A DNA stretch of 64,000 nt, taken from the NCBI GenBank assembly GCA_036172245.1, contig JAYWIR010000037.1, positions 496,001 through 560,000 on the forward strand, read 5' to 3'. The DNA is from Raillietiella orientalis. Its lineage: Eukaryota. Positions 1 to 21,592 of the stretch are shown here, in pieces (the first letter of the stretch is position 1; every line of letters starts with the position of its first letter). The position numbers and the translations under genes were made by a program. The notes under the pieces were generated by a model. The model saw only the letters and a program-made list of their open reading frames with translations. It was not told the DNA's origin and did no database searches.

Positions 1-520
1 GCTTTCCGCCTCTTGAAGCCTTCCGATGGCGGAGATGAACTCCGCCATCTGAAGGGTTCCTCGAGGCTTCTTGCCCCTCCTCCTCTAACGCTCTTGTGCG
101 CTCTGGCAGCAAACGCTGCGCAGAGTCGTACTCTGAGGGTACCCTCACGTAAATCGAGGGGTAAAAATCACGTAAGTTTTCGGCTTACCTGAGCTGGGGC
201 CGAGTGTTCTTGGTCCCGATTGTTCAGCAAACAGGCCGATCCGAATTGCCCCCCAGGCCCATCTTTGTATACCGCCAGACGTCAGACGTCGGGAGTCTTG
301 CAGAAGCGACGGGTGTGGAGGTGCGCTGTTTCGCTCTGCACCCCATCGCCAAAACCTGGAGGAAGACGGCCCAGGGGGAACTGGTCGCAGAACTCTCGGA
401 CTGTGCATTTTAATTTGTCCCAGTCCTCGAACATCTGCAGTTCGGACCCTCGCAGGAATTGGAAGGTGCTCCGCTGCTCCTGAGAGGTTCAACTAGTCCC
501 CTGGCAAGCGCCATGCTTGG
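1..520 (-). mobile_element. Degenerate L1/Tx1-clade ORF2 fragment (endonuclease-RT linker)
   Basis: Minus strand across frameshifts reads AAEHL-QFLRGSELQMFEDWDKLKCTVREFC...PPGFGDGVQSE...ENLRDFYPSIY. This is collinear with the old element at 6799-7000 plus 3575-3735 (EAAEHLRDFLRG...WYETK...PAEFGEGMRNE). Confidence 0.6.
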
Positions 521-1299
521 GAGGGAGGACCCCTGTAGCGCGGAAGTGGGACCGCGCATTGGAACTCATTCGCGGCTCCTCTGCTCCTAGCCCTGCTTTT
601 TGTTTGCCACCCCTCACTTTTACATGGTGGAGACATCCAGAAACTTGTCACGCACGAACATGTATTTCTTTACATGAAATAGTGGACCGCGGACCTTTTA
701 AGAAACACCCTGTGGAGCAAAGAAAAGGCGCTCGTCTGGTTGAGAGATCTGATGACTTGACTCCAGTGGTGGTCTTAGCCTCATGACTCTTGAAGACAAG
801 AAGAGTCTGCTCCATCAGAAAAGAGTAGCATAAGTTTGGGAGAACTAGACGTTTCCATGGTGCGTCCCAGCACGTGCCCACGCCGAGTGAGCAGCCGGCT
901 GCGAAGGACTGACATCGTTCCTCGTCGGCAGCCACTGAAGTCTAACCCATGGCAGATGCTTGCCTTGGTGGAGGAGATCCCTTGGCTCTCCTGTCTCCCT
1001 GCGAACTGTACTACCTGACTTAAGGAGGCAGTTGACATGTGGGGAAGGATCCACGACACGAGGGCGGAACACGACTCCTGTCAGCTACGGGGCAGGTACG
1101 CTCTCGTCAGTCGTTTCAGGAGATCGTAAGCAAGGATCGAAGGTGCGTTGGGGCTTTGATAACTCTCCTTTGCCGCGGCGGTGCTCTCCTTAAGAAAGGC
1201 AAGAGGCGATGGAAGACAGGCAAGGCGGGAGACGAGCTGCTGCGTTCCAGGGAAAAAGAAACCTCTTGGTGGGTGGGTGGTCGACACGTGAACTGGCGG

Positions 1300-3040
1300 A
1301 CGTTGCGACCCCGAGTGTTTCCATTAAAAGGACTCTAACGCTGGGCTCAGCTCCGTCCCATGCAGACACGAGCAAAAATGAAAGGCAAGCATTCACCATG
1401 TTTGCATTTAGCATTTCTGATTTGTGCAGCTCTCCTACGAATCTTATCTTTCCAATTACTTCCGCTTAGCCTTACGTTCACCACCTCCATCATCAGCATT
1501 TCGTCCTTTTTCAAATTCTGGTTGGCATCTATCAAGAAACTTACGAAATGCTACTTCGTGCCTATCTGCTTGAAGTGCTTCCTCACTCATTTTGCCACAT
1601 TCTACTACAAAATTTGGTTCATCGACAGCCTTTTCAAATACAAAATTTAAACTTCCCCCCAATCGAATTTGCGTACCTCTTCCTAAAGCATGAATCGTGT
1701 CGATTCGTGAAAGGAACTTTTGTTGTTTTTTTAACCCTTTGAGTGTTGTGGACGCATAGATGCTCCCGAAGGAAGCCATCAGCATGGCGTTTACGCATGC
1801 GTTTGGCAAATTGCACGCGCAGCATAATTTAACACTGCCAATGTTTGAGATGGACATTCTCATCATCCCCCTGGCAACGACAGTAAACAAAATTCTGCTT
1901 GTATATCGGCCAACGATTCTCGGTTTCTCTCGGTGTTCGTACAGAATTTCTTATACCGTTTTTCATCTTTGTGATATCTTGAAAATGTGAATGGATCAAC
2001 ATTTTTCAAATAAATAATGATGCATGTTTGGGGAAAATGAAAACGTTTCATTTAATGTGGTGTTAAATAAAAACAATTACGATATTGACTTTAATCTGCA
2101 CTCTATGTAGTCAGTCGACAGAGCACGTGGTACGCGAAGAAGCGTTCCGTCCACTCGCATGCCGTCAACACGGAATTCTTCAACCGGATGGGCTCCACAC
2201 CCAAAGGGTTTATAATTGAATTTCCTAAACGTAACTGATCTTTCTCTGTCTCATTGTTTTGACGAGCACATTTACTGGAAGCATCCATGCATTCTGTTTC
2301 ATGTAAGTCAACTTCATTTAGATGGACTTTCAACTCCATAATTTTGGGAGCAGGTTTACGGCTTTTACCCAGAAGGCTTCATCCAATTGATCGAGGCACC
2401 ATTATGGGAGTGATCCCTGATTTGTCGAACGGGAGCTGGGGAAAAATCTATCGCTTCCTTGTTTCTGGAAAATCGCTCGCATCGACCCGATCGCCTTCCC
2501 GACTGCCGCCCACCTCAGACTAGCAGGGAATCCCTAGACGTGAGAGTGTCGACGGGTTCCGCTCCTGGCTCCACGACAACCGCGACCTCGTGGCATTGAA
2601 GGATTATTAGATGACTAGCCATTTGCAAACTCTTGTCTCAATTTCTTGAACTTTTGAGTTGACCAGAGAGCGTGCTGCAAATCCATAACGATCTCCCGAC
2701 TACACTTCCTTATTCCATCAGCATTAACACTTCCAACTTCTTTGTAGGATTCCATGCCATTGCTGTTATATTGAATTTGGATAGAAGTATTTTCACGACC
2801 ATTTTTCGCTTCATTCGACTTCTCACATCAAAAGGACTGCTACTCTTGGCTCAGCTTTTGGTGATTTTTCCAGGTGATCCGGTGCAGCCAGCAATGTGTG
2901 TGAACATTCATGCACCCTCCCCTGGAGTGGCAGGAGTTGGCGTTGTTGATCTTCCATTGAAGCATTCCATATAACGAACGCCTGCATCATGGGACCTGGT
3001 GAAATGGAGATCTGAACTGTGGCAGTTGTAGGAAAAGAGA
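1300..3040 (-). pseudogene. eIF4G: Decayed, apparently intronless eIF4G copy (eIF4E-binding region plus MIF4G domain)
   Basis: Collinear minus-strand motifs: NADGIRKCSREIVMDLQ (decayed YxxxxLphi site, ~2680-2730); KIMELKVHLNEVDLHETE-AW (~2285-2345); QKFLSRIDTIHAL...RLGGSLNFVFEKAVDEPNF...FRKFLDRCQPEFEK (1505-1730); then after a frameshift IGKIRFVGELHKSEMLNANMVNACLSFLL (1370-1460). Stops and frameshifts are present; boundaries approximate. Confidence 0.85.
1735..2208. mobile_element. Non-autonomous piggyBac-type element (MITE), 474 bp
   Basis: Left end TTAA|CCCTTTGAGTG and right end CACCCAAAGGG|TTTA: imperfect terminal inverted repeats starting CCCT with a TTAA-type target. Removing it rejoins the eIF4G reading at the start of MIF4G (..GNSII / K..QKF..). 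Confidence 0.7.
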
Positions 3041-3049
3041 AACCTTCAC

Positions 3050-3569
3050 GCGCCTGCTTGTGGACTGTGTTGTCCTCTGGCCCTTCTGGGAACGTTTTTC
3101 GATCCCAGGGACTCACTGAAACGCCACTTCGTGTGTGATGCGCTGCCACCAGTCGCGTGTTTAGCAGCTGCTTTCCGTTTGCTTGCGAAGGTGGTGGCAT
3201 GGAACGCCTACAGAAGAGGACAGCATCCAGGGACGCCATCCTTTGGACGAAAATGTTTTCATGAGGATCAAGACGAGATGATCCGACTTCAAAAACAGCA
3301 GGACAGAACTTGCTAGCACCCCAGAAAGGAAGCAGAGGGCACCAAGGCAGGAAATGTGATTCCTTCCCAAACCCTCCAAAGAATGTTTGTATTTGTTTTT
3401 GTATTTTTTATCTTTTTGTGCATCCCTTCCCTCTTGTTGCCGAGACGATGGTCTCCGGTCGTCGTACCGGCATCTTGGCAGGTTCCGTGTTCTGTGACCA
3501 TGTGACCGTTTGCTATTTTTTTTTCTTTTATAGTAAGCGTCCTGGCTCAACCGAGTGAAAAAAAAAAAA
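3050..3569 (+). mobile_element. 5'-truncated, diverged L1/Tx1-like copy with an A12 tail (copy F)
   Basis: Starts at LLVDC..FWER (end of zinc knuckle), shares the 3'UTR layout of the 3749-5662 element, and ends CCGAGTG followed by A12 (3558-3569). Confidence 0.7.
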
Positions 3570-3748
3570 CCTCCGGGCATGAGCGTTCCTGTCTCTAGTC
3601 GTCCAGCGAACTGGCCGACCCGGATTGCCAGGTTTGTCTCTCATCCCCAGTCTTAAACCCGGCCAGTCAGCAGCTGCATCCGACCTTCTCTGGTGACTCT
3701 GAGCCTGCAAGAAGGCATGCTCATTCCTCATCCCCTCACCGAATTCGG

Positions 3749-5662
3749 TTGAGCACCTACGCTGAGTTGGTGCTGAGAGCGTACAGGGTGACTTTGGCCC
3801 CCTTGCCGAGCTCGTGCCCCGGCACGCCAGCCGTAGCGGCGTATGCCGACGATCTTCTGCTCCTCTTACCTATGTCCACCCCGGCGAAGGCGGTCGGAGA
3901 TTTCTTCGACCTGCTTAGCCGTGGGGCCGGATTACAGGTTAACAGGGCGAAGTCGTCAGTGTTGCCAGTTGGAGCGACGTGGGCAGGGCAGCAGGACTGG
4001 GTCCGTCTGGGGATCCCCACGGTGAGGTGCATCAAGTACCTCGGTGTGCCGTTGGGGGACTTCTCCCCAGCGGAAGCGTGGTCCAGCTGCCTCCAAAAAG
4101 TCGAGACGGCGATCGGCCCGTTCCTGGAAGGCAAGTTTCACTTGCCGGAACGGGCCGCGGTTTGGAACGCCTTCGTGGCCCCCATCCTTCGCCCCTTGCT
4201 TTTTGTTTGCCCCGCACCCGTGGAATCTAAAAAGCGGACGAAGGACCTCCTCCGCATAGCTCTTTGGGGCAAGGGGAGGCCCCGAGTCCCTTTGAAGGAC
4301 TTGTGCGCTCCGCGTCGGGACGGCGGTCTCAGCATCCTGACGCTGGAGCGCGTGGAAATCTAGCTGCGATGGCGGACCCTCGCCATCGCAGCGAAGATGT
4401 GGAGCACCACTTGGTGCATTCCGGCCCGCCTCCTGGCCAGGCGTGTGTCCCGCTGCAAAGGACTCGCATCGTTTCTTCTGTGCCCTGGCCGGAAGATTCG
4501 AAGATGCGGTCTACTGCTCGGTCGCATGGCAACCCTGGCAAAGGAGAACGACTGGATGGTTTGTGGCCCTGCCAACTCCTCCGCTTGGCTGGAAGAGACT
4601 GCTGGCACCTGGGCCAAGCAGAACCAGAGGTGCGAAGACTGGATGAACTGCCTGCGAGTCGGCTTTTACGCCCGCCGAACTCTCCGTGAAATTCTTGAAT
4701 TTCCACCGAGTTGCACGTGGGCGGAAGGCACACCCCTTGTTACGGCGATGCCCTTCCTCCAAAGGGCGCTTCACGAAAGCCGGAAGCCAAGGTGGCAAGT
4801 CTGCTGCCGTATCGCAGGCAGAGAGAAGATGATGAGCGGCTGGACCATGGGAGAGTTGACAGATGCAACGACCCCTAGTCTCCAGCCGCGTGGATTAAGA
4901 AGATGGGGCGAACTGCTCGGCATTCGATTGGATGACCTGAAGTGGCCCCCGGTTCTACTTGGATCCAGGATTCTTCCCCTGAAGTGGCAAGAATCGGCGC
5001 TTCTGTGGCTGCATTGGGGTCTACCCTGCAACGCGCGCCGCTTCCACTGGACGCGGGGAAGAGTAAATCCTGAGTGTGCCAGGTGTGGGGAGCGGGAGTC
5101 GCTCCCCCACCTCTTAGTTGATTGCCCTGCCGTCCGGATTCTTTGGGATCGTCTTAAAACGGCCCTTGGGATACCGGATGGTGGCAACCCCAGAGGCGTG
5201 TACAGTCTTGTCTTCGTGCGGGACGCCCTCAGTCCAGCCGCAGCCCTGGCAGCACTTTGCTGCATTCGTGGTACCGTGGCGGCCTGGAGTGATGCCGAAG
5301 ATGAAGATTGCATCGTGAGGGACGTCATCGAGTATGCTGTTCGCTTCCTGCAGAGAGCTACCCGATGGCCCCATCTGGGAAAAATGAAAATGGAACTCGA
5401 AGGCATCCTGCAAAGGATGGGCCCTCCCAGCAGTTGTCTGTGATCCCTTCCCGGCCCTCCAAACTCCTTTTGTTGTTTTTTTATTTTATTTTATTTCTGT
5501 TTTCTCCCCCATCCCCCTCCACTGCCGAGGAGAGCCACACCGGGCTGCGTCCTGGTGTCCCGGCAGTTCCGGTATTGCGTGGCCGTCAGTGGGGCCTTGT
5601 ACCACGTTCTGTATTGACTGTTGAAATGTTTTTAATAAACGTCCCGGCGTATCCGGGTGGCA
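3749..5662 (+). mobile_element. Young 5'-truncated L1/Tx1-clade retrotransposon (array unit A); ORF2 remnant 3749-5443 with RT C-terminus and CCHC zinc knuckle
   Basis: AYADD, GLQVNRAKS, IKYLGVPL, PRRDGGLSI and CARCGERESLPHLLVDC motifs. ORFs 3749-4363 and 4397-5443 are in the same frame, separated by a single TAG (4361-4363). T-rich structured 3'UTR with AATAAA, ending GGGTGGCA; flanked by TCACCGAATTCG(G/A) at 3736 and 5663. Confidence 0.92.
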
Positions 5663-5675
5663 TCACCGAATTCGA

Positions 5676-5745
5676 TATAAGGAGATCGCCCTCCTCCATT
5701 AAGGCTGAAGTGTTTTAATAAACGTCCCGGCGTACCCGGGTGGCA
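5676..5745 (+). mobile_element. Extremely truncated copy (array unit B): last ~40 nt of the element preceded by ~30 nt of unassigned sequence
   Basis: TGTTTTAATAAACGTCCCGGCGTACCCGGGTGGCA matches the unit A terminus; flanked by the target motif at 5663 and 5746. Confidence 0.75.
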
Positions 5746-5758
5746 TCACCGAATTCGG

Positions 5759-6265
5759 TATGGGTGGGGATACCGGTTGGTGGCAACCCCAGAGACGTTT
5801 ACAGTCTTCTCTTCGTGCGGGACGCCCTGAAGCCAGCCGCAGCCCTCACAGCATTTTGCTGCATCCGTGGTATTGTGGCGGCCTGGAGTGATGCCGAAGA
5901 TGAAGATTTCAACGTAACGGACGTCATCCTGTATGCTGTTCGCTTCCTGCAGAGAGCTACCGGATGGCCCCAGCTTGGCAGAATGAAGGAAGACCTCGAG
6001 GGCATCCTGCAAAGGATGGGCCCTCCCCTCAGTGGAATGTGATCCCTTCCCGTCCCTCCAAACACTTTTTGTTTTTGTTTTTTCTCCTTTTATTTTATTT
6101 TCGTTTTTTCCCCCATCCCCATCCACTGCCGAGGGGAGTCACACCGGGCTGCGTCCCGGCGTCCCGGCAGGTCCGTTGTTGTGTGGCCGTTAGTGGGGCC
6201 GTGTACCACGTATGTTGTTGACCAATGCGAAGTTTTAATAAACGTCCCGGCGTACCCGGGTGGCA
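5759..6265 (+). mobile_element. 5'-truncated L1/Tx1-like copy (array unit C)
   Basis: GIPVGGNPRDVYSLLFVRDAL...LEGILQRMGPP is homologous to the unit A C-terminus; same 3'UTR and terminus; target motif at 5746 and 6266. Confidence 0.88.
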
Positions 6266-6278
6266 TCACCGAATTTGG

Positions 6279-6785
6279 TATGGGACACAGGACGTGGAAC
6301 GCACCAATTTCTTTCATTCCCAGGGACGTTTTGCGACTCCTCTTCGTGCGGGATGCCCTTTTGACAGCCGCAGCCTTAGCAGCTCTCTGCTGCACCCGCG
6401 AAATTGTGTTGGACTGGGGCGATGCTGAAAGAGGACAGTACGAGTGCGACGGCATCGAGTAGACACTCCGCTTTCTGCGGATAGCACCTAGATGACCTCA
6501 TCTGGGTGCTGTGAGGACGGACCTAGCCGACATCCTGGAAAGCATGCAGAGGACTCCCTCCAGAGATCCCTTCCCGGCCCTACACAGAGTATTTACTTGT
6601 ATTTATTTATTTTCTTTTTGTTTTCTTTCTTCCCCACCGCTGCCGAGGAGAACCACGCTGGTCTGCGTACCGGCAACCCGGCAGGTCCACAATCAAATCG
6701 AGCGTGGCAGGACCACGCGTGTCCTACCACAACGTTGTGAGTTTGTTGCCATTTTCAATAGGCGCTCCGGCATGCCCTGGTGGCA
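6279..6785 (+). mobile_element. 5'-truncated, more diverged L1/Tx1-like copy (array unit D)
   Basis: PRDVLRLLFVRDALLTAAALAALCC followed by stops; diverged 3'UTR ending CCCTGGTGGCA; target motif at 6266 and 6786. Confidence 0.82.
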
Positions 6786-8134
6786 GCACCGAATTCGGCA
6801 GGAAAGGGATCCACAGGGAAGCTCGTGTAGGACTCCTGGACCGACCGCGTTTCGTCTCGTACCAGCCCGCGACTGCTGCACGTTGACACCTCGCAGGAAG
6901 TCGCGGAGGTGTTCTGCGGCTTCCTGCAGGTGAAGGCGAACACCCGGTAGGCAGGCACACTGAGCGTTGGACAGGGGACCCTTCCGCGTTTGAGGGGTCC
7001 AATCTCGATCCGGGCGTGGTCCGAGATTCTGCATCCGCGCTCTGACACGACGACCAGCCCGCGAGCACAGGCGGCCGCCGAGGAAGACGTGATCGACGCT
7101 GCTTTCCATCCCTGGTCCGCCGGCCAGCAAGTTGAGCGCGTGCGTGGCCGCGCTCAACTCGTTGACCGTGTTGGGCTGTCCGCTTGTTTCACCTCACCGC
7201 AGGGGCATGTTGAAATCCCTCCCCCCCAATCAGGTGAGTTGGAATCCCACGATCTCCTCATGCCTGCGTGGCCCTGCCATTCACGCTTCAGGGCATCCAA
7301 GAGCTCTGTCATGGCCCGTTACGGCCGCCGGGAGCGTACATGTTCGTGATGACGAGGTGGGTCGAGACCGAAGTGAACGCTTCGCACAGCGCTCTCTGTG
7401 GCTGTCTGAAGCAGGAAGGCAGAACTCCCACGAGGGGTTCTCGGAGCAGCAAGGCCAATGCAGCTTCCCTCCCGGGGTCCGTTTCATCTCGGGGTCTTCC
7501 GCCTGTGGATCCTCTGCAGGAGTACCAGATCGAACGGACATAGGCTGTGTCTCGTCTCCTGCCGTCGTAGCGCATTCCGTTGATGTTGCAACAGGCGGTG
7601 TGCAGTCCAAGGCAGGAGGCGAGTCGCCTCATTGCTGCTGGGAATTTCAGCTCCCGTTTGGTGCTCAAGAGGGACGCTCGCAAGTGGAGAGGAGATCGAA
7701 AGGACGGTGTCCCCTTCCCTTCATCCTCCTTCCGGAGCGGAGGATTCTCTGTGCGGATGGTTCTCGCGAACCTGTCTTCAGGCCTTCTTGCCTTCCGCTT
7801 CATGCATCCCCTCCTCGGAGGGGATGCACCAGCCTCCGAAGGAGATCACGTGTCTCCTCTCTGCTTTGGACTCTTCCGGTGGGTGGCCGTGAGGGTAGCC
7901 GCCTCCAATCCAGAGTCTGAAGCCTCGAAGAGGTTTTCTCCTTGGGTTGTCTGAAGATCTTTTTCTCCTCGGACTTTCCGTTGCTGCGCGCAACTATCAC
8001 CTCCTTGTTTTCCTCAGAGAGGGTAGCAGCTTCGCCTCGTTTTGATTCATCTTTCGTTGTCTCTTGAAGGAACATGGACTCTCGCTTTTACCACGCTCTT
8101 GATAGTTTATTCGGTCGTCGCAATGCGCTCCATT

Positions 8135-8830
8135 CTCTTCCGGGTGTGCCGGGGCATTAATTCCAGTGAAAAATAACCATTTTCTGAGAACTGTGGTTGC
8201 ACCGCCGGTCCACAGTTTAATGGAAGCCTGGCGGGTCACGGTTCACAGACCGGCGTGGTCCACCACGGCAGCAGAGGAGAGGGGGCAAATAAAAAGAAAA
8301 AAAATAGATAAATTAAAATAAATACACCTTCAGGGGGTAGTGGTGGTGCGGGAAGGGATCACTGTCTTCTGGTGGCGGTCCTGTGCATCCTCTGTAGGAT
8401 GCCGGCAAGGTCTTGCTGGGTAGTCCTGTCCAGATGGGGCCATCGCGTTACCATCCACATGAAATCGTACAGCGAAGTGAAGGTGGCATTTCTGTCGCTG
8501 TGGCCTCCCCTTGCGTCGCTCCAGGCAACGACGATCCCCCTGCAGGCAGTGGAGAGCTGCTGCTAGCGAGGCTGTCGGTCGAAGGGCATTGAGAACGAGG
8601 AGGGGTTTCAGAGCGTCCTGGGTTGCGCCGGGAGTTTCATAGGATCAAAGCGTTCCCAGAAGGGACGAAGGGCAATACAATCCACTAGCAGGTGGAAGAG
8701 GGATTCACACTCCCCTCATCTGCCTCAGTACCTCATCCCCCATGTCCAGTGATGCCTGCGGGCGTTGCACGGGAGACCCCAGTGCAGCAACAGTGCCGAC
8801 TCCTGCTAGACAGTGCGCTCGAGGGTTACT
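8135..8830 (-). mobile_element. Diverged 3' fragment of the same L1/Tx1-like family (copy I)
   Basis: Minus strand QESALLLLHWGLPCNARRHHW...ESLFHLLVDC, followed by the T-rich 3'UTR and a terminal CCCCGGCACACCCGG hairpin. Confidence 0.75.
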
Positions 8831-8899
8831 TTTCAGGGTCGAGCGTGCTCTTTTCGTGATCCACTGTTACTGCGGTGTAGGGTTTTGATGCATTTTTTT

Positions 8900-10890
8900 T
8901 TTTTTACGTCACTATCTGTCAGCCCGCATCTTCCGGTTCTTTGAGAAGGGTTTTCCGACTGCGTCCGGCTGGGCTCGGCGACGACCTCTGCACTTTTTGG
9001 TTTGGAATTTTTTGTTCTCTTGCGCGATTCCGTCTGCACTCGCTCACTCCCTCTGCGGATTACGCTGCAGGAGTTTCGCGAGCGAGCCTTTGGGGGCAAG
9101 ACATCTTCAATGTGGTGGCTCGACTGCTCGCAGCGGCGGATACCTTCTCCTCAGATGCCCCCTTTTGTTGCCGCTGCCGCACACCTTGGCTTCGAGGCAC
9201 TCAGCGCCGATCTGCATTCTAAAGGGAAGCTGCTTGCCTTCGTCCACGGTGACGCGCGCTGCAGCCAAGCCACTGAACCGCCCCTGGAATCAGGGGAACA
9301 CTTTGGGCGTGCACCGTTGCTGGCAGGGAACTTTTTGGTCTATCCGCAATTCCGGTAGTCCGGTAGAGTGGACTGCCACTCAGCTGTCCCCCCCCCCCCC
9401 TTACATGGAAATTGCTCTGCCCTCAGCGCTGATAGGGGTTTTCAGTAATCTCTGGGCGGATCCTGCATCCTTGCAAATGAGCTTGGATCATGGATTGGCC
9501 CCCACGGATCACACCGAGGAACCTTCCACTCTTCCTTGTCAAAGTTCCGTTTGGCCAGTTCCTCGGCGATGCCACCCGGGTACGCCGGGACGTTTATTAA
9601 AAAAACATTTCTTCAGTCATTACAGAACGTGGTACAAGGCCCCACTGACGGCCACGCAATACCGGACCTGCCGGGACACCGGGACGCAGCCCGGTGTGGC
9701 TCTCCTCGCAGTGGAAGGGGATGGGGGAGAAAACAAAAATAAAATAAAATAATAAAAAAACAACAAAAGGAGTTTGGAGGGCCGGGAAGGGATCACAGAC
9801 AACTGCTGGGAGGGCCCATCCTTTGCAGGATGCCTTCGAGTTCCATTTTCATTTTTCCCAGATGGGGCCATCGGGTAGCTCTCTGCAGGAAGCGAACAGC
9901 ATACTCGATGACGTCCCTCACGATGCAATCTTCATCTTCGGCATCACTCCAGGCCGCCACGGTACCACGAATGCAGCAAAGTGCTGCCAGGGCTGCGGCT
10001 GGACTGAGGGCGTCCCGCACGAAGACAAGACTGTACACGCCTCTGGGGTTGCCACCATCCGGTATCCCAAGGGCCGTTTTAAGACGATCCCAAAGAATCC
10101 GGACGGCAGGGCAATCAACTAAGAGGTGGGGGAGCGACTCCCGCTCCCCACACCTGGCACACTCAGGATTTACTCTTCCCCGCGTCCAGTGGAAGCGGCG
10201 CGCGTTGCAGGGTAGACCCCAATGCAGCCACAGAAGCGCCGATTCTTGCCACTTCAGGGGAAGAATCCTGGATCCAAGTAGAACCGGGGGTCACTTCAGG
10301 TCATCCAATCGAATGCCGAGCAGCTCGCCCCATCTTCTTAATCCACGCGGCTGGAGACTAAGGGTCGTTGCATCTGTCAACTCTCCCATGGTCCAGCCGC
10401 TCATCATCTTCTCTCTGCCTGCGATACGGCAGCAGACTTGCCACCTCGGCTTCCGGCTTTCGTGAAGCGCCCTTTGGAGGAAGTGAGTTCCTCGGCGAAT
10501 GAGCGCACAACGGAAGCAAGAGCAAGACGGCCTACCTTGTCAGGCAGAGCCGACCGGTATCCTTGGGCCATGTAGACCCGGGTTTCCGTCTGGGCAGTTG
10601 GAGCAACCGTAGCCGCCACCTGACTCCATGACGAGGGGTGTTGATTCCCTGGAGACCACTGCCTCTGTCTTCATTGCTAGGGGGAAGAAATTTGCACTTC
10701 GCCTTTCCTCATCGGCGATGTTTGCAGGCATTCCTGTCATTCGTGCACTGCGAACACGCCGACTTCAAAAAACACAGGTAAAAACTAGACAACAAGCGCT
10801 TGCAGTCATGGGCGGATCGAAAGACAGAGGGAGGGAGAAAACATTCCTGTCGCTTCTTACTTGCGCCCGGAGTAACCGGACGTAAGCGAG
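8900..10890 (-). mobile_element. Old L1/Tx1 ORF2 remnant (linker and RT start), host of copy E
   Basis: Minus strand PANIADEERRSANFF (~10690-10730); VVRSFAEEL|AKRNF rejoined across the 9570-10485 insertion; LLKTPISAE (~9425-9450). Heavily frameshifted. Confidence 0.5.
9570..10485 (-). mobile_element. Young 5'-truncated copy E, nearly identical to unit A 4753-5662, with a perfect 13-bp TSD
   Basis: Near-identical translated ORFs to unit A; AGTTCCTCGGCGA duplicated at 9557-9569 and 10486-10498; no poly(A) tail. Confidence 0.93.
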
Positions 10891-12552
10891 AATTTCTATC
10901 TGGAACTGCATTTTGTCCTCGATAAAAGAGCAAACATCAGCAGGAATGACTACATAAAATGGATCTCAAGACGACCTTGTTTAGATGCTTTCAAAAGTTT
11001 TTTTTTTTTTTTTTTTTCATTTTCAGACTTTTTATATTGCTCTCTCTCTGTTTCATTCCCGAGATTCGGAGGATGTTGTTTTTTTGTCACAGCGCATCGG
11101 GCACTTGCACCCACCTTGGAGACGAAATACGGAAATGATGAACGGGGGAATTTTTCATGGCACACCACCCACGCGCAAAGTGAAGTTGGCCTTTGTATCG
11201 ATTCGGTTTCCATTTTCATCCGTGTCTTAAAGGACACATGACGACGTGGAATACGAAACTCCGGATGCGAACTTTATCATCACATTCGTCTACCAGCATA
11301 TCCATTTAACACCGTACTGATGGATCAGTCACCATGACGCCGACTCCGTTCATCTCTCTGTCGCGTTTTGCTGTGGCTGCTCCGCGTTTCTGTTGTCCTT
11401 TAGGACTGATCGCATTTGCAGGCCCTTCCGAAAATTAAGGATTATAAATGGGGATTCATCACGGGATGTACAGCAGCAGAGGGGGGGGGGGGGAGAAAAA
11501 AATGGGCTGAGTAGAAGAGTAGAATCAGGCAAGTTCAGAAAAACATACCGTGGTGACTGCTGTATTTGTGAACACCTTTGTCTTCAAATCTTGAACGAAA
11601 CGGGCTCTCGGTGAGGTAGTCAGCTGACACATGTTCCGAAAGCCTTCAGGGGTATCCCACCCACGCGGTGCAATTTACACCCCAACTTCTTTTTTCCATT
11701 ACCATCAGTGATCTCTAGGATTAAGAAGCGGAAAAATGGAAACAAAATGCTTGTAGGAAAGTGATTTACTTTTGGAGCAGTAAAGAGACATCACTCTGCA
11801 GGGAGAAAGTTTCTTTCAAAATTGTGCTGATACAGTTAAAGCACGAAGCAGTCCACAGAGGAAGAGGCAGTGATTGCTAGTTGTCCAACGGAAACCGAGA
11901 ATTACGGGAAACCAAAAAATGCGAAACGAAGCCGATCGATTCGGCAGATGTTGCCATTGAAGGAAAAGGCACAGCCATCATTTTCTTGCACAGGTAGATG
12001 GTGTGTGTTTCCTCATGGCACGCTGTTGCAGCTTTTCTTTCGCCTATGCATGTATGTTAAGGTAGCCAACCATCCGAGACTCGTCACGACTTTCCTTTTT
12101 TGCTAAGCGGCCCAGCTTTTTTTCAGCTCTTTTTCCTAATTCTTTCTGTTTCAATGTTGAATGTGGAAGCTGGTAGGCATGGTGGTTATGAAATTAATAA
12201 TTACATCCACGATTCAGTGATGCGGGAAACGTGATAATCTGGTTCTTCAGATTCCTTTTTTTAACTTGCATGCAACCAGTGTCGGCTGCCTATGATCCAC
12301 TGTCTATGATCAACTCTATGATCTACCATTCTCGCGAACCTATCCATGATTTGCAAACTTGCTACTAAGAAGAAGAAGAGGAGGAAAGTTGGAGACTCTG
12401 TGGTAGCAGCGGTCTCCGCGCATGGTGCCACGCGTTGCGGGTTCGAATCCCCACGTCGAGGATCGACTCTGGGAAACGGGCGCTTCCTGGGTTACGAGTT
12501 TTCGCCTCAAGATTGCGCTGATTGGACTGTAAGCTTTGAGTGCGGCATCGGT

Positions 12553-14194
12553 TGACACTCGGTCATGCCAGGGCGTTTATTTATAAAAAATAAACGTACA
12601 TGTCTGTGGCAGAACGTTTGATCCTGCCACGTTACTTATAACAACGAGAGGGAACCTGCCTGGAACTGGCACCAGTGGGGTTAGCCTCGGCAGCACAGGG
12701 GAAGGGGAGACAAACAAAAAGAAAAAAAACAAAAAAAATTCAGTCAAAAAATGAGGGAGGGGGGGGGGGCAGGGAGGTTCAGGAAAGGCTCACCGTGTGT
12801 GCTGGAGGACGTCCTCTGCATCCTTGTGAGGATGCCGGCAAGTTCCTGTTTTATAGTTCCCAGATGGGGCCATCTTCACACTGTCCTCATGAAGAGGACA
12901 GCAAAATAGATGGCGTCCCTGTCGTCCTGGCCTCCTCTGGCGTTGTTCCATGGAGCCACGATCCAGCCACGTAGGCAGCAAAGTGCTGCTAGGGATGCGG
13001 CCTGACGGCATGAGAGTGTCATGCAGGAAGAGGTGCTTCGGAACGTCTCTGGCAGTGCCGCCGGGGGTTCCAAGGGTCGTGGCCAAGCGCCCACAAAGGG
13101 GCCGGAGGGCAACAGTCTACCAGGAGGTGCAGGAAGGATTCCTTCTCCCCGCAACTGGCACAGTTCGGGTCCCCCCTCCCCCCCATGCCCAATGATGCCG
13201 GTAGGTGTTGCATGGGAGGCCCCAGTGCAGTAGCATCAACGCCGACTCCTGCCATTTTAAGGGGAGAGTATGGGTGTTTATGATCACCGGGGACACTGCA
13301 GCATACCCAGCAGCACGCTTCAACCCGAAAGTTCACGAGGTCGAGCAATCGGAGTCGCAGTTTCGGTGAGCTGGTCCGTCATCCACTCGCCCAGTCCTCT
13401 TCTTCCGGAGATTTCCACAGTAACCTCCCATCTAGCCGTAAGCTGCTACCCATGTGCTCTTTAAGGGAGGGCATCCCGGTGGCGAGGGAGGTTCTGTTTG
13501 CTCATGCACTCTTCGCGGTATCTTCCAGGATTTCCCGGAGCGTGCAGTTGTTACGCGCATACAGGATTCGTCGCACCTGTTCCCGGCTTGGCTCCTGGAT
13601 TCGCGCCCACGTGCGAACGGCTTCCGGGAACCAGGCACTACCGTTCACGGGGCTGCACGAGATCCAGCTGATCTTCCTGGTGAGCGTGGCCATCCGCCGA
13701 AGCTGCAGCCCGCAGCGGGAGATGTTAAGGCGACGGCGCGCAAGGAAGCAAGCGAGTCCCACGCTGCCGGTGGCTTTCTGGAGGAGGTGAGGTGCAGGTT
13801 GGCACCAGGTGGTGCTTCACAGGTTTGCCACGAGGGCAAGTGTCTGAAACTATGGCTGCAATTCCGTTCGCTTCAGCGTCAGGAGGCCTAGGCCGCCTTC
13901 TCGACGCGGAGCACACACGTTCTTTAGGCAAACTCGGGCCTCCTTTTGCCCCAGAGGGCGATCCGGAAGAGATCTTTTGTCCGCTTTCTAACGTTGCATG
14001 GCGGGGTGCAAACAAAAAGCAGGGGGGTCACGGAGGTGTTCCATACTACGGCCCGTTCCGGCAGTTAAAACCTGCCTATTTGGAATGGGTCCATCGCCTG
14101 CAGTGCGTTCTGAAGACGGTCGGACCGGGGTGTTTCTGCGGAGCAGAAGTCCCCCAACGGAATGCCCAGGTACTTTAAGTACCGACCCGTAAAG
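12553..14194 (-). mobile_element. Diverged 5'-truncated L1/Tx1-like copy G inserted in the tRNA-headed repeat
   Basis: Minus strand KYLGI, PRREGGLGLLTL, LPLKWQESALMLLHWGLPCN, CASCGEKESFLHLLVDC; 3'UTR with AATAAA ending CCGAGTGTCA; decayed TSD GTGCGGCATCGGT (12540-12552) versus GTGCGTCATTCGT (14195-14207). Confidence 0.85.
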
Positions 14195-14439
14195 GTGCGT
14201 CATTCGTGGAAGCCGGAAACCGGATGTTCTGTTGAGTGGCCAAGATTGAAGGTGAACCCTCCGGGGTCCTTCCAGGAATCGAGAGCCGGTTCCTTTCGGG
14301 GTTCCCCTTCGGTTGTACAAACGAAGCTTCGTGGAGCTCGTGGATTTCCTCCAGAGCATCGAGAAGTGCGCTGCTCCCTTAGGGAGGAACTCTTCAAAGA
14401 AAATTTGGAAGCGTCCCTTCGGGATTTCCTTCGGGAACA

Positions 14440-15546
14440 ACCAGGCCGGATGGCCTGTTGTCCATCGTCAACTCTATGCTTGGCTAGGAGAAACATTCGG
14501 CACGTGGGCGAAGATGAGCGAGCCGAGCTCCGAAGAATGGAACTGGTTAATGGAGCGCCATCTGTGCCCGCTACTCGCAGAGGAATATCCAGCATGAGCG
14601 CGTGGGCGGAGCAGACCCCCTCGCAGCAACGATGCCTTTCCTAAGGTTGGCACTTGACAGCCGCCGTTAAACGTCGAGGTGGGAAGTCTCTTGTGAGATC
14701 GTAGGCAGGCGGAAGCTGATGGGTGGATAGACCATGGGGCATCTGGAAGATGCGGCGACCCCGAGTGTCCTTCCATGAGGACTTCAACACGAGTAAGCTG
14801 TCGGGCATTCCCAGCGAGGACCTGGAGTGACATCCAGTGCTCAAGAACAGCAGCACTCTCCTCCTGAAGTGGCAAGAGTCGGCACTTATGCTGTTGCTCT
14901 GGGGTCTTCCTTGAAACTCACGTCGACTCGGGGGGGGGGGTGGCGAGCCCGGACTGTCGCAGGTGCGGGGAAGAGAATCCTTTCGCACCTGCTTGTGGAC
15001 TGTGTTGCCATTGCGGACTGTGGCACCTGTGGGAACGTTTCGAAACGACCCTTTGGATCGCGGTTGGCACCTCCAGGACGCTTCACGGCTCCTCTTTGTG
15101 CGGAATGCCCTGCAGCCCCAGCAGCGCTTTGCTGCATCTGTGGGATAGTGACGACCTGGAGCGAAGCCGACGGAGGAAGAAACGAGAGGGACGCTGTACA
15201 GCTCGCAGTCCGCTTTCTGCGGATAGCGACCAGATGGCTCCACCTGGGACCTATTCGGACGGCCTATCTGGCATCGTAGAAAGGATGCAAAGGACTCTCT
15301 CCAGCGGACAGTGATCCATTCCCGACCCTCCAGGTTGTTCCCATTCCTTTGTATTTGTTGTTTTCTTCCATTTTTCTTTTCGCTTTCTCCCTTCCCTCTC
15401 CGCCGTCGAGGGGATCCTGGGTCTGGGGACCGGCGACCCAGCAGGTCTATAGACAGACGGACTGTGGCAGGGTACCACGCGTGTCCCGCCGCATTTTATG
15501 AGTTCATTTTAGATTTCAATCAATGCCCCGGCGTGTCCGGGTGGGA
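14440..15546 (+). mobile_element. Diverged 5'-truncated L1/Tx1-like copy H
   Basis: AWLGETFGTWAK, LLKWQESALMLLLWGLP and CRRCGEE..HLLVDC with stops and frameshifts; family 3'UTR ending CCCGGCGTGTCCGGGTG. Confidence 0.82.
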
Positions 15547-15989
15547 ATTGGAGACAACCAAGGTGGGAGGCTCCCTTCCAAGCCCTAGAGGAATGGATTC
15601 CCTTCCTGCATTCAAGGAGTGGTCCCCTCCAGGGTTGCGCCTTTAACTTGTAGAGTTACTACATGCAGGGAACCGTGCTAAAGAGCTCCGCAAGCCTTCA
15701 GGCGGATGACGGTTCCTGAGTACTTAGCGAACCAAGAGAAGGCAGAGATCGTCAAGTCCTCCTTTACCACAGAAGTGTAAAGTAAACAGAAACGAACAGC
15801 GGGAAGAAACCTCGGGAATCTCTGGAAACACTGAAGTTCGGGAACAGCGGTTGAAACAGTCGGATGGAACTAAAAAAAAAAAAAAAAAAAAAAAAACACT
15901 ATCTTCGCATTTTCGAAGTTTTCATTTCGCCATTTCGAGAATCGTTCCTTCCGCATCCGAAAAGTGCTCTGCTTAAAGGAATGCAAGCG

Positions 15990-18900
15990 GATCTGTGCAG
16001 AATGCACCCACCCGGATCCTCGTGAGCTGCACGACCATCGGAAGCGGCAATCGGGAAGACCACCCTCGCGTCCCCGACCGGCCTTATGCTGCTGCAAGCG
16101 AGCTACGCGTTTCCACGCCCCCGCTTTGCCTGCCACCGTGCGGTCACTTACGGAACCGAGCCGCATCCGCACAGGTTGCCCGGCTGTTAGTAGCGGGAGA
16201 AGCCAGCAGATCGGCACAGCGACGTGCGCGTGCCACTTGCAACCCGCAAACCGTTCTTACCGCGGTTGCGGCAACCCGATGCCAACTGCCGCGTTCCGTC
16301 GTCCATGGAGTGACAGCAGACCGGGGAATGGACTGGCCAGAGGCCTGCCGCTTTGCTGAGACGCAGGAGGAGACGCGAAGGGAAACGCGCGTTTTCCTTA
16401 AAACTAGAGGCGCTCTCCGGGATGCTCATCCGCTTGGCGCCGAATCGGGAAGCGGGGAACGGCCCCGCCCCCTCCCTCCTCCTTCCCCCTCCCGCGAGGG
16501 AACGACAGGATGCTCCCTTCGCGACTTGCCTCCCCCTGCACTCCGCCTCCTCCCAGGGGCGTCGCTGCCTCGGGTCGCGCGACTCCTGCCGTTGCCACCA
16601 GGGGCCGTCGAGCGAAGGGGGAGTGGCGATGAGCAGCGGCAGAGGACGTGTGCACTCCGCGGGAAGGGACCAGACTCCCGGAAAGTCGTGTTCCCCGGGA
16701 ACGCCCCGCGCACTCGAGCCTCCCGCCTTCCTCCTTGAGCCGGACAGGAGTGCCGGGCAGGACGTCCTCCCCTCGAGGAGCGGCGGCGCGACAGCGACGG
16801 AGTCGGGGCGCCGGTGTCCAAAGGCACGGCCGCCCGTCCCGGGACGCTCCCGACAGGATCCGACTCTAGGGTATCGCGGACGAGCCCTTCCTCCCCAGGG
16901 TGCGTGAGTCCCCTTTCGGGGGCTGAAGGAGGGGACGTTGGCCTCCGAAACCGGGAGCGCCTGCGCCCGCAAGGCACCCGGGCTGTTCCTCTTTGCGCTC
17001 GAGAACTCCCTTCTCGCCGTGGGTTTCTCCTGGACCCTGGATCTCCAGGGTGAGCCTCGAGGGCTTTCTCCGAAGAGCCTCTTTGGAACGAGGGGGTTTC
17101 GAAGCAGGGCCGCCGCCGGGACTTTCGGTCGCCCGAAGAGAAGAAGGGGTCCGGATGTGGGGAGCTGCTCGAGGGTCCTGCGCTCCCACTCCCCCCCTCC
17201 ACTCTGGGTCTGCTTGCGGTGGGACCAGGGAGATGCTGCAGCCGGACGGGAGGGACTCCCCGTCACCACCCACATCCGACCGACTTGCCCGCCGGCGCCG
17301 CCGCAAACCCCCGCTGGGGTTCCTTTACTCCCACGTCATCACCCGAGCGCAGGAGAGCGCGCCGCGAGGGCTGCTGCAGGTGCAGCTGGCGGGAAGACCG
17401 CTGCCCCGGCTCCTGGAATCGTTGCGTCTCCGAGGCCCTTGGCCTCGGAGAGCTTTCGTCCCCGGAGGAAGGGAACGCTCCCGGACGACGGAAGACGCTC
17501 CCCACCCCACCCCTTTCCACCCGATGCAGGAGCCGGGGCAATTCTGGGCACTCGCCGAGGTGCAACCGCGGGGAAGGGCGGGGGAGGAGGATCCGTTCGA
17601 CCCAGCGCTTCCACAGGAGGACTCTGGGGTCTCCTCCCTGCAGGCGCGATACCTCAGGGGCAGGTGAGGGAGGGACCGGGCCTTGGGGTCGCTGCGGCAT
17701 TCGCGTCCTGGCGCTCTCTCCTGAATAATGAGCATCCGAGGGCGGAAGATCATCGAGCCATTTTCGGGGAGACCTTGAGGTCCCGGATAGGTTCTGAATG
17801 ACTCATGTGGAACGAGTCATAGACTCCCGGGGAGGAGCACGGGAGCAGAAACCTACGAGGGACCGTGACGGCAGGAAGGGCAGGGAGGCAATCCGGAGCC
17901 GACGGCGGTCGTGGACGAGGGAGGGAAGAGAGAGCGAGAGACCCCTTCTCCGCTCCCCCCCCCCCTTCGGAGGCGGTTGCGAAGGACGCGCTCCACGGGC
18001 CCGCGCCTCAGCAGGAGGAGGAGCGGCGGCTCCGGCAATTCCTGTCCGGGAACCCCCCGAACCTCCGCCTCCGCTGCCGAGTTGGCGCGGGCCGACGTCT
18101 GAAAGTTGGCTCGCGGGGGAGGAAGCCGGCGTCCCAGGTGGGGCCGGCCGGCCCTTTCCTCTCCTTCCCACAGCGAGGAGCAGGGCGGTAGCTCTCCATC
18201 CTCCGAGGAGGGAGGTGGGATGGGAGACACTCCGGGGGAGGCGGGAAGGACTGGAAAGGGCCCCCTGCCAGGAGAAGCGGCTCTCGGAGGAGGAAGTGCT
18301 GCTCTCCCAGGTTCCCATTTTCATGCGTCCGGCAGGCGGAGCGGGGTGCGTTGTGGCAGAGATCCGCGGCTCTTCCGCCGGCTGCCCCGCCGCGGGCTCT
18401 CGGCTTCGGTGCCCCGACGGTCGCCAGGGACGAAGGGAAAAGGTAGAGGGGTAAGAAGGGTCGGAGCGGGCCCAGGAGGAGGAGGAGGAGGACAGCGTGC
18501 TCCCTTCTTTCCACCCTTCCCCTCGGGATGCGGGCAGGCGAGGAGCACCTCGTCCTCCACTCTCCGGAGCCGCCCTCCCCCCCCGGGCTGGAAACAAGGA
18601 AGGGAGGACGGCGATCGAGGGGGAAAGGATTCCCCCTCACCTCCTTCTGGTTCCGGGACCGCCCTCCGTGCTTCTTGGCAACTGGTCTCGCGTCCAGCGG
18701 GGGAGGTGAGCTGCGCAAAAGGTTTTCGTGGGCTTTCGTGCCTCTCGGGCAAGATCAGGAGACCGACCGGGCAGGGGCGCCCCCGCTGCCGCTTCCCGCC
18801 ATAACCCGGGAGCTCCCGGAGTCGGGAAGAACCTCCAGATGCTTTCCGCGGGCTCGCGCGGCGCTGCGCTCGGGTCGGCCCCTGATTGGTCGCGGTAACC

Positions 18901-20690
18901 TCCCCCCTCCGGGGGTGATCTCTTTACCCATCACCCTACACAGCGGACACTAGCGGCGGGCACTGGAGGGCGTCCGGGAGCAGCCGACCTCCAGCAGCAG
19001 AAGCGGCACCTTGGAAACTGCTGCAGGCGACGGGGGCGCCATCAGTGGCACTTCCACTTGGGGTAGCTTCCAGAAATCCCCGTCCCCCTTTCCCCTTCTC
19101 AGGCACCGAGGCGACGGATCCGTCTCCGGGACCAACCGTGCCATCTCTGCGCCCTCCCGCCTTTCCCAAGCTGGAAGGCAGGAAGAGGCTGGGGAATCGC
19201 CCGGTCCAACTAGGTGCTCCCGAGTTGCGCCTCCATCCGGCGCGAGGTGCCCGCAGCCTTTGCGGACGTCATGCAGGAGGCAGACGAAGGCCTGTGGATC
19301 GATAGATGCCGCGTCCCCGCGCCGAGGAGCCTCCTCCCGCGCGTGCGCAGCCGTCCTCCCACCGCGCTTCCTCCTCCACCTCCTCCGCGGGCTCGTCTGC
19401 AAGGAGCAGGCTGACCCGGAGCGCTCCTCCTCCTGCGTTGTATCATGCGGAGATGCGACTCCTCCCCCGCGCGAGACGGCACCGCGCCTGCTCGTCCCCA
19501 GCTTTCCCCGCACGCTTCATTCCTCATCTTCGCGTTTCCGGTCGGGCGGATCCGGGAAAACCCCTAGATTGATCTTCAGTGACCCCTGACCCCTACTGGC
19601 GAACGCGCAGTCAACTCCTGGTTCCTGCGGATCGGGGATCGGGGTGACGAAGCCCGGGAAGGCATCGGGTGGAGCGCGCCGCATACGATGCACAGGTCCC
19701 AACGTCACGGGCGGTAGGGTTCCCTTCCCTCTCTCTCTCCTCCCTAATTCCACTCTATGGGCCTCAATTCCCTTCTTTTTCGTTCTCCTCCTTTTACTTT
19801 CCTCCTTCCTCCAGCTCCCTCCGTTCCCGTCGAGGACTCGGCCAGCACCCTCCCTCCGGGAGGACTTTGTTGGACTCGGAGTGACGTCACGTCCCACCGT
19901 CTACTCCGGACGGTGAACGAACGCCGCGGCGCGGCCGGGCGGAAAGGCAGAGAGGCGCAGCTGCCTCTCGCCTGCATGGCGCCCGGATGAGCGGAGCTCG
20001 ACAGGGGTGTTTGACAAATCACGAGAAACGGATCTGGCCGCCGTCGTCTTGGAGAGGGGGGGGATGGAGTCCTTTCGCTTCCCACCCTCCCGCTGCCACC
20101 CCACCCCTTTCACCTCCAGCTTCCGTGAAGCGATCTGCCCACCTGGTAGCTGGGCGAGCCTACAAGTGCGATGGCGAAGTCTCGTCGCGAAGGCTGAGCC
20201 CGTAACTTCCCTACCCCGCTCCAGTCTCCGGGTCCACCCCCACGTTCCCTCTTTGCAAACGCGGTCGCGGTAGCTCGAATTTTTTTTCCTCTCTCGGAAG
20301 ACGATGGGTGTGTCTACGGAGCACCCGTGTGCCGCGCGGCACCACCGGAAGTACCCATCCTCTGCCCAGCTGGGAACGTCATCTGCGAAGCGAAATGGGT
20401 GCGCGCACGCGCGCGCCATGCGACGCGGAGATTTCAAAGCTTCAGCAGCCGGACAGACGGATCCTTCGGTGCTTGTTCCAGGTCCTGCATCCCGTTCCCA
20501 TTCGAGCCCGACTCCCATCCAGGTAAGGGACGTCGGAGTCAGGCTGCGCGAGCGGGCAGCCGAAGTGTCAGATCTGGAGCAGAGTTTGCAAGATGGAACG
20601 AATCGAAGCCTGCCGATGCCCAGTCAAGGTTACGGCAGCCGTTCTACCTCCGTGTACCATGCGGGCTTGTCAGTACGTCGAGGATAAAAA
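15990..20690 (+). CDS. Putative highly divergent (possibly disrupted) CTC1-like CST-complex subunit gene; exon structure not resolved
   Basis: GC-rich block with short GT-AG intron-like segments (18895-18943, 19063-19102). Collinear peptides resemble human CTC1 as recalled: LPPCGHL~LPCCSHL, LSGMLIRL~LAGSLVRL, ARPGT..RVS~LRPGT..RVS, APGLF~PAGLY, WIDRCRVPAPRSLLP~YIEDPHLPPSLGLLP. No in-frame start ATG found, and some frame changes lack obvious introns. Confidence 0.45.
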
Positions 20691-21239: not shown

Positions 21240-21386
21240 AGGGAAAGCCGGTTTCGCGGGCGGGGTTGTGCTCGGCAGGAGTGTTCGTGTGAGTTCCCTG
21301 TGCGCTGTGGCGGAAAGCAATTTGAAGCGCTTAAGGAGCCATTTTTGTCGTTCAACCTTTGCTGTTGCTGCACACATAACGAAGCC

Positions 21387-21558
21387 ATGACTGAAGAATG
21401 CCCCAAATCACCGAAAGATTTGCCTAAAATCAACCAGTCGCTTAAGGATGAATTGGTTGGATTCGAAAAAGGAGAACTGAAAGACAGCCGTTGTGTCGAA
21501 AAAGGAGTGCTTCCTACGAAAGAAGGTGAAAATTTTTAAAAATGGGTGTGGAAAGTCA

Positions 21559-21592
<34 letters not shown>

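What the first reader, a model, noticed from the sequence alone, without database searches (positions are those of the whole stretch)
3736..6798. Polarised, time-ordered retrotransposon array: four separate insertions stacked into one 13-bp site
Seen: the motif TCACCGAATTCGG recurs five times (3736, 5663, 5746, 6266, 6786; up to one mismatch), separating four same-strand copies with different 5' truncation points and clearly different sequences, so this is not a simple tandem duplication. Deleting the array restores a continuous antisense host reading (FPAEF|GEGMRNE). Age is polarised: unit A is near-identical to copy E elsewhere, C is diverged, and D is most decayed. The duplication before C extends to 19 bp (…GGTATGGG) and includes the first bases of D, and the one before B extends to ~16 bp, so D came before C and C before B. 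Inference: an L1/Tx1 family has re-cut the same nick over evolutionary time, always adding at the upstream end, producing a CRISPR-like chronological record. Established: Tx1-clade elements include sequence-specific families, some targeting other transposons, but I do not recognise this target.
Basis: partly seen in the sequence, partly recalled or inferred. Interest (0 to 1): 0.85.

Follow-up and report, generated by a model that had tools for sequence, protein, structure and literature searches.

The report
Four LINEs stacked at one site
Four truncated copies of LINE-type jumping genes from three lineages landed one after another at the same 13-base spot inside a related LINE's gene, a stacking behaviour already known from insect R1 elements; the rightmost copy came first, but the full order of the other three cannot be read from this sequence.

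Summary
The array is real. A 13-bp motif recurs five times between four same-strand, differently 5'-truncated L1-group LINE copies (A 1914, B 71, C 501, D 507 bp). They are not local duplicates: A is sister to copy E elsewhere, D groups with copy G, and a clade A+C+D is rejected (p-AU 1.7e-5). The target is the antisense of F-G-[DE] codons in the endonuclease-RT linker of a related LINE; an uninterrupted relative at 195-550 aligns without a gap across the empty site. E has its own 13-bp duplication sharing only TCRCCGA, so the motif is a target, not the element's tail. The time order is only partly shown: D preceded C (chance 2.5e-4) and probably B, but 'C before B' does not follow, and C is no more decayed than A (9/176 each); the supported order has a chance of 8/24. 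Stacking into a regenerated 5' duplication is published for R1 (PMC2718515). This scan has already noted the same linker target and tandem pairs in other windows of this genome. No reads confirm the array.

The parts
3736..3748 (+). Motif copy 1 (left target-site duplication, next to the host's own flank)
   Evidence: 14 nt exact with the copy at 5746
3749..5662 (+). Unit A: 5'-truncated L1-group LINE (end of RT, thumb, zf-RVT, 3' UTR); one in-frame stop at 4361-4363
   Evidence: RVT_1 E 0.0018 and zf-RVT E 0.00068, both below Pfam's cut-off; 64% identity to P0001, which matches human L1 ORF2p at E 1e-39
5663..5678 (+). Motif copy 2; 12 nt exact or 16 nt with one mismatch against copy 3
5675..5745 (+). 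Unit B: about 40 nt of the element's 3' end behind about 30 nt of unknown origin
   Evidence: 97.5% to E over 40 nt; the 5' part has no match over 10 nt exact elsewhere in the window
5746..5764 (+). Motif copy 3, extended to 19 nt; carries six bases that begin unit D
   Evidence: chance of the six-base match 2.5e-4
5765..6265 (+). Unit C: last 91 codons of ORF2 (open) and 3' UTR; sister lineage of A/E
   Evidence: 85.7% to A; tree support 100/100
6266..6278 (+). Motif copy 4 (one C-to-T change in a CpG)
6279..6785 (+). Unit D: about 40 nt poorly alignable 5' part, 81 codons with 2 stops, 3' UTR; groups with copy G
   Evidence: 67-68% to A and C; tree support 99/97
6786..6798 (+). Motif copy 5 (first base differs), followed by host sequence
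6799..7531 (-). Host LINE upstream of the site: frameshifted APE endonuclease and start of the EN-RT linker
   Evidence: six APE-like motifs in the expected order at 7531, 7464, 7344, 7217, 7100, 7024 (motif identities recalled and picked by eye); own profile gave only 3.2 bits and Pfam no endonuclease hit
3575..3735 (-). Host LINE linker downstream of the site
   Evidence: colinear with the uninterrupted relative
195..550 (-). Uninterrupted relative of the host linker; homologous site at 346-358 begins TCGCCAA and is empty
   Evidence: 214 of 349 columns identical, score 136.5 against a maximum of 69.5 in 500 shuffles, ungapped across the junction; 15 residues match the start of P0001
9557..10498 (-). 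Copy E (body 10485-9570) with its own exact 13-bp duplication at 10486-10498 and 9557-9569, sharing TCRCCGA with the array motif

Best explanation
Four separate target-primed reverse-transcription events by L1/Tx1-group LINEs at one preferred site. Shown: four units, different 5' ends, three lineages, one target copy between neighbours, D earlier than C. Inferred: the endonuclease nicks just 5' of TC(A/G)CCGA; in this host that is the antisense of the F-G-[DE] codons of a related LINE's EN-RT linker, so insertions lie backwards in the host. The second nick falls 12-19 nt downstream, so each insertion duplicates the target and leaves a new site on both sides. D (D/G lineage) came first; C's longer duplication copied D's first six bases; B is an aborted, very short event; A (A/E lineage) is recent. 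The 7-mer is not enough by itself, so wider context or the local chromatin of this LINE nest must add to the preference. Growth at the upstream end, as in R1, fits every junction and is the likeliest order (about 55%), but it is not demonstrated. Priming probably starts at a conserved 3' hairpin ending 23 nt after AATAAA, since these copies have no poly(A) (inference).
For: Five motif copies, far above chance. Different 5' truncations. A sister to E 100/100, D with G 99/97, clade A+C+D rejected, p-AU 1.7e-5. E carries a different exact 13-bp duplication on both sides that shares TCRCCGA; copies F, G, H, I end without the motif. The emptied site aligns without a gap to an uninterrupted relative. 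Six-base capture of D's start, chance 2.5e-4; three-base capture at B, chance 0.010. Family architecture APE + RT + zf-RVT in relatives of P0001. The same mechanism is published for R1 (PMC2718515), SINEU-3 (PMC4494074), trypanosome retroposons (PMC3820030) and Drosophila TE dimers (PMC5932611).
Against: Only two independent target sites for the A/C/E group are visible here (the array and E), and they share 7 of 13 positions in the core; E appears to lie in the same orientation as its surroundings and not in a linker. Twelve of 18 TCRCCGA matches in the window lie beside no copy end, and the one homologous linker site is empty. G, D's closest copy, does not end at the motif, so shared specificity of D's lineage is not shown. 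The host's endonuclease is recognised by motif order only. No genome, allele or read data confirm the array.
Confidence: 0.82

Rival explanations
1. Same site-specific re-insertion, but not polarised: later copies entered any of the regenerated junctions, so position in the array is not a clock (for example B entered between A and C last, or C entered between B and D).
For: Junctions fix only D before C and probably D before B (8 of 24 random orders). A's left junction matches the junction before C for 14 nt exactly but the junction before B for only 12, which needs no mutation if A preceded B. C has an open frame and as few private changes as A.
Against: End-branch lengths, upper bounds on age, rise along the array (A 0.012, C 0.069, D 0.18). 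In R1, tandem copies are inferred to enter the 5' duplication (PMC2718515). No junction contradicts upstream growth.
Confidence: 0.4
2. Part of the array was built elsewhere and copied here in one event as a read-through transcript (3' transduction of B-C-D behind A, or template jumps between RNAs that carry target sequence).
For: The copies lack poly(A), so read-through is conceivable; B's 5' 30 nt have no source in the window.
Against: The host is continuous on both sides with a single target copy restored; each of A, B, C has AATAAA 23 nt before its end; stacking would still have to be explained at the donor.
Confidence: 0.07
3. Local tandem or segmental duplication, or unequal exchange, followed by decay; or an assembly artefact.
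For: Head-to-tail, same-strand repeats; no independent reads span the array.
Against: Different 5' ends; units 68-86% alike; A is closer to E than to its neighbours; clade A+C+D rejected. Assembly errors repeat near-identical sequence (general knowledge).
Confidence: 0.04
4. The motif is the element's own 3' end, not a target.
For: A, B, C, D and E are all followed by (T/G)C(A/G)CCGA.
Against: The motif also stands 5' of A where no element ends, it encodes host residues conserved in the uninterrupted relative, and E's version is duplicated at E's 5' end. Four other copies end without it.
Confidence: 0.03

Closest known systems
Tandem R1 arrays in Drosophila 28S rRNA genes (Stage and Eickbush 2009, PMC2718515; passages read)
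   Same: APE-type non-LTR element, 14-bp duplication between head-to-tail copies; the authors infer that new copies insert into the duplication at the 5' end of resident copies, i.e. the polarity proposed here.
   Different: Target is rDNA, not a LINE coding motif; R1 is not an L1-group element (recalled); here three diverged lineages share one stack and duplications vary from 12 to 19 nt.
Tx1-clade elements that target other transposons: Tx1 in Tx1D, Tx1-Mar and SINEU-3 in Mariner-N4_AMi, Tx1-8_Crp and Tx1-4_AMi in LTR elements (Kojima 2015, PMC4494074; passages read)
   Same: L1/Tx1-type LINE with a transposon as target; tandem SINEU-3 copies sandwiching one duplication are ascribed to sequential insertion; SINEU copies lie opposite to the Mariner.
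   Different: Targets named there are DNA transposons, LTR elements, microsatellites and small-RNA genes, not ORF2 of a related LINE.
Zepp / ZeppL (PMC3446292, PMC8226300; passages) and Cnl1 (PMC9942834; passages)
   Same: L1-type LINEs that insert into existing copies and build clusters of mostly 3' ends.
   Different: Described as tandem-orientation self-nesting; here the stack is antisense to a more distant relative and re-uses one nucleotide position. The original Zepp paper was not available.
Tandem retroposons of trypanosomes (PMC3820030; passages) and double-insertion dimers in Drosophila (PMC5932611; passages)
   Same: Different elements or different 5' truncations separated by one duplication, read as independent insertions at one preferred site.
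   Different: Other clades and targets; mostly dimers.

Membership tests
L1/Tx1 group of non-LTR retrotransposons | RT of L1 type | tested here: met
   A matches P0001 at 64%; P0001 has RVT_1 E 4.7e-24 and scores 139 bits on human L1 ORF2p against 64 on R2
L1/Tx1 group of non-LTR retrotransposons | N-terminal APE endonuclease | tested here: inconclusive
   Absent from the truncated units; present in distant relatives; in the host only by motif order
L1/Tx1 group of non-LTR retrotransposons | C-terminal zf-RVT region, 5' truncation, variable target-site duplication | tested here: met
   zf-RVT E 0.00068, below cut-off; truncations and 12-19-nt duplications
Tx1 clade (strict sense) | RT phylogeny with named Tx1, Keno, Kibi references | not tested
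   No labelled reference sequences came back; nearest named hits are Ixodes proteins at about 30%
Tx1 clade (strict sense) | Sequence-specific target | tested here: inconclusive
   Four hits within one base at one site and a shared 7-mer at E, but 12 of 18 such 7-mers are unused
R1 clade | Insertion in 28S rDNA | tested here: not met
   No Rfam family in the window; target is LINE coding sequence
R1-like tandem array (works like) | Head-to-tail independent copies separated by one target copy | tested here: met
R1-like tandem array (works like) | New copies added only at the 5' duplication | tested here: inconclusive
   D before C firm, D before B likely, others open
Zepp/Cnl1 self-nesting arrays | Insertion into copies of the same element in tandem orientation | tested here: not met
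   The array is antisense to its host and sits at duplications rather than inside earlier units
CRISPR-like record | Polarised acquisition of foreign spacers that are later used as guides | not testable with these tools
   Units are the inserting elements themselves; no expression or small-RNA data were obtained

The most novel reading that the evidence does not exclude
LINE lineages at least 25-30% apart have kept one endonuclease specificity for a codon-constrained motif (F-G-[DE]) in the ORF2 linker of their relatives, insert backwards into it, and add strictly at the host-flank side, so that each such array is a datable, ordered log of which lineage was active when, and the insertions disable or silence competing relatives.
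Probability: 0.25. Interest if true: 0.68.

Novelty: new variant of a known kind. Interest (0 to 1): 0.42.

Why it matters
The stacking mechanism is known. What differs is the target, a conserved coding motif of related LINEs hit in antisense, and a four-deep stack from three lineages whose unequal duplications keep part of the insertion order. If polarity held genome-wide, such arrays would order LINE lineages in time without a clock and would test whether an APE endonuclease needs the natural upstream flank; a target that relatives cannot easily mutate away would also bear on competition among transposons. From this window alone it is one well-preserved example.

Tried and rejected
No whole genome is held, so copies could not be collected genome-wide. 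The run search gave 1 run holding 0.07 of the words; its contigs cover parts of the units at mostly under 90% identity (210 of 285 laid), none spans the array and the host flank 6805-8139 has no cover: no evidence either way on the array. Two metagenome scans gave no close relative (0 loci; 7 distant loci, not analysed further). A search of longer proteins with A's C-terminal part found nothing. A full-length profile from 36 of the 150 listed hits missed the host's endonuclease; a domain profile gave 3.2 bits; Pfam gave only chance hits on the host frames. dN/dS could not separate lineage divergence from decay for C: omega A-C 0.64; polarised changes were 14 nonsynonymous to 4 synonymous on C's branch and 10 to 4 on the A/E stem, 3 unassigned. 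My first reading of 1-550 as the host's continuation was dropped: it is a second copy that overlaps the same linker stretch. At protein level that alignment is weak (score 60; 7 of 1000 shuffles reached it); the DNA alignment carries the claim. No convincing duplications were found for F, G, H, I. The inner palindrome of the motif is not needed, since E's site lacks it. A's 3' UTR alone does not fold better than shuffles (z -0.84). No Rfam hit, no tandem repeat called over the array, no solved-structure hit for A directly. Eight literature searches (listings and abstract starts only) showed no paper on a LINE that inserts antisense at a fixed ORF2 motif of related LINEs; the library lacks most subscription papers, and no supplements were read.
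Full report
Observation. The motif TCACCGAATTCGG occurs at 3736, 5663, 5746, 6266 and 6786 with at most one mismatch; with two mismatches allowed there are 7 matches against 1.5 expected, and 0 of 100 shuffles reached 7. Between the copies lie four + strand units of 1914, 71, 501 and 507 bp, all ending in the same 3' terminus and starting at different points. Unit A encodes the end of a reverse transcriptase and a zf-RVT region (both below Pfam's cut-offs) with one stop in 563 codons. Its best relative among 1.84 billion representatives, P0001, is 64% identical, carries RVT_1 at E 4.7e-24 and matches human L1 ORF2p at E 1e-39, far better than R2; its longer relatives mostly show APE + RT + zf-RVT. 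The units are therefore L1/Tx1-group LINE copies. The strict Tx1 clade was not tested. The host organism is an animal whose BLTP1 fragment has arthropod proteins as best named hits at about 44%.

Independent insertions. The window holds eight comparable 3' ends (A, C, D, E, F, G, H, I; B is too short and was left out). In a tree of their last 470-500 bp, A pairs with E outside the array (100/100), C is their sister (100/100) and D lies with G (99/97 for the five-row group; the fork itself is open); holding A, C and D together is rejected (p-AU 1.7e-5). A and E differ at 4 of 690 coding bases; dS is 0.19 for A-C and 0.72 for A-D. A local duplication or an assembly echo would not give this.

The motif is a target. 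It also stands 5' of A, where no element ends. E has a different 13-mer, exact on both sides, that shares TC(A/G)CCGA. F, G, H and I end without it. The host is a decayed LINE on the minus strand: six endonuclease-like motifs appear in the expected order from 7531 to 7024 (motifs recalled and picked by eye; profile support is weak, 3.2 bits and no Pfam hit), and the frame with the SDH motif is open to the array, 73 codons further on. A second, uninterrupted copy of this linker lies at 195-550: with the array removed by coordinates, 214 of 349 columns match, score 136.5 against at most 69.5 in 500 shuffles, with no gap at the junction. Both read F-G-[DE]-G at this point, so TCRCCRA is the reverse complement of conserved F-G-[DE] codons. 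Against a simple rule: this homologous site (TCGCCAA) is empty, 12 of the 18 TCRCCGA matches in the window lie beside no copy end, E does not appear to sit in a linker, and G, D's nearest copy, ends at another sequence.

Order. The junction before C repeats 19 nt of the junction before D, including six bases that are not host sequence; by local base frequencies the chance is 2.5e-4, so D was in place when C arrived. The junction before B repeats 16 nt with one mismatch (three extra bases, chance 0.010), so D probably preceded B. But those three bases come from D's start, so they do not order B and C. A's left junction matches the junction before C for 14 nt and the junction before B for 12 (14 with one mismatch): A-after-B needs a 12-nt duplication or a later mutation, A-before-B needs neither. 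Divergence from E is not age. Private changes at columns where four other copies agree are A 9/176, C 9/176, E 8/175, D 32/199, G 40/207, H 50/217; C's frame is open (0 stops in 91 codons), D has 2 in 81. End branches rise along the array (0.012, 0.069, 0.18) but are upper bounds. If each insertion chose a junction at random, the supported order (D before B and C) has probability 8/24, the order with D oldest and C before A 3/24, and the full order 1/24. Upstream growth fits all junctions and is not demonstrated.

Mechanism. Target-primed reverse transcription with a first nick at the start of the motif (within one base) and a second nick 12-19 nt downstream regenerates the site on both sides of each new copy (established for APE-type LINEs; inferred here). 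All eight 3' UTRs share a predicted stem and a terminal five-pair hairpin (only 2 of 18 pairs show two-sided changes), A, B and C end 23 nt after AATAAA, and only I has an A-tail, which suggests priming from a structured 3' end (inference). Polarity would follow if the enzyme prefers the natural upstream flank to an element end; this is testable in vitro.

Independent data. No genome is held. One public run holds a small share of the words; its contigs are mostly under 90% alike and none spans the array. Metagenome scans gave no close locus. The array rests on the assembly alone.

Prior art. Stage and Eickbush (PMC2718515; passages) describe R1 tandem arrays separated by the 14-bp duplication and infer insertion into the duplication at the 5' end of resident copies. 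Kojima (PMC4494074; passages) lists Tx1 families that target DNA transposons and LTR elements, and tandem SINEU-3 copies around one duplication. Tandem trypanosome retroposons (PMC3820030), Drosophila dimers with distinct truncations (PMC5932611), Zepp/ZeppL (PMC3446292, PMC8226300) and Cnl1 (PMC9942834) were read as passages. Eight searches (listings only) showed no paper on antisense targeting of a fixed ORF2 motif in related LINEs. Earlier notes of this scan on other pieces of the same genome describe antisense insertion at the same kind of linker motif, 12-13-bp duplications and head-to-tail pairs. They are unchecked AI notes; I had placed the site in the linker before seeing them and derived the codon motif.

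Verdict. A real, well-preserved four-unit stack of independent LINE insertions at a regenerated target inside a related LINE. It works like an R1 tandem array and is not an R1. The target is a variant I did not find in print; the strict chronology is plausible and unproven. Interest 0.42.

Noticed in passing
window 3405-3572, 5515-5662, 6118-6265, 6632-6785, 8135-8290, 9570-9722, 12553-12705, 15385-15546: All eight LINE 3' UTRs share a predicted long stem and a terminal five-pair hairpin with a five-base loop just before the end; only copy I has an A-tail.
   Followed up: partly
window 1-16000: The whole stretch is a nest of related LINEs on both strands (copies E, F, G, H, I, a + strand RT fragment at 515-1282, and a weak endonuclease remnant on the minus strand at 1773-1603, 10 bits); who sits in whom left of 3575 is unresolved.
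   Followed up: partly
window 3739-3748, 5749-5758, 6789-6798: The last ten bases of the motif form a perfect palindrome, found only here in the window; a 16-nt duplication, as at B, would be symmetric about it.
   Followed up: partly
window 5675-5706 and 6279-6318: The 5' ends of B (about 30 nt) and D (about 40 nt) match nothing else in the window beyond 11 nt: untemplated or captured sequence.
   Followed up: partly
window 12540-12553 (minus strand): Copy H is followed by ACCGA, a partial echo of the target motif; no duplication found at its 5' side.
   Followed up: partly
window 21385-22545: A compact, intron-containing gene that looks like a multi-repeat beta-thymosin (recognised by eye; not searched).
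   Followed up: no
window 30284-31591 (-) and 46219-60518 (+): Fucose pyrophosphorylase domain gene and a BLTP1 gene; GC falls from 50-67% to 31-37% over 36-54 kb.
   Followed up: partly
window 16000-20200: GC-rich (67%) block with long open frames on both strands and no Pfam hit; unexplained.
   Followed up: no
window 14349-14426 and 62421-62498; 12428-12555 and 62697-62826: Two short repeats shared between the LINE nest and the far end of the window, probably other mobile elements.
   Followed up: no
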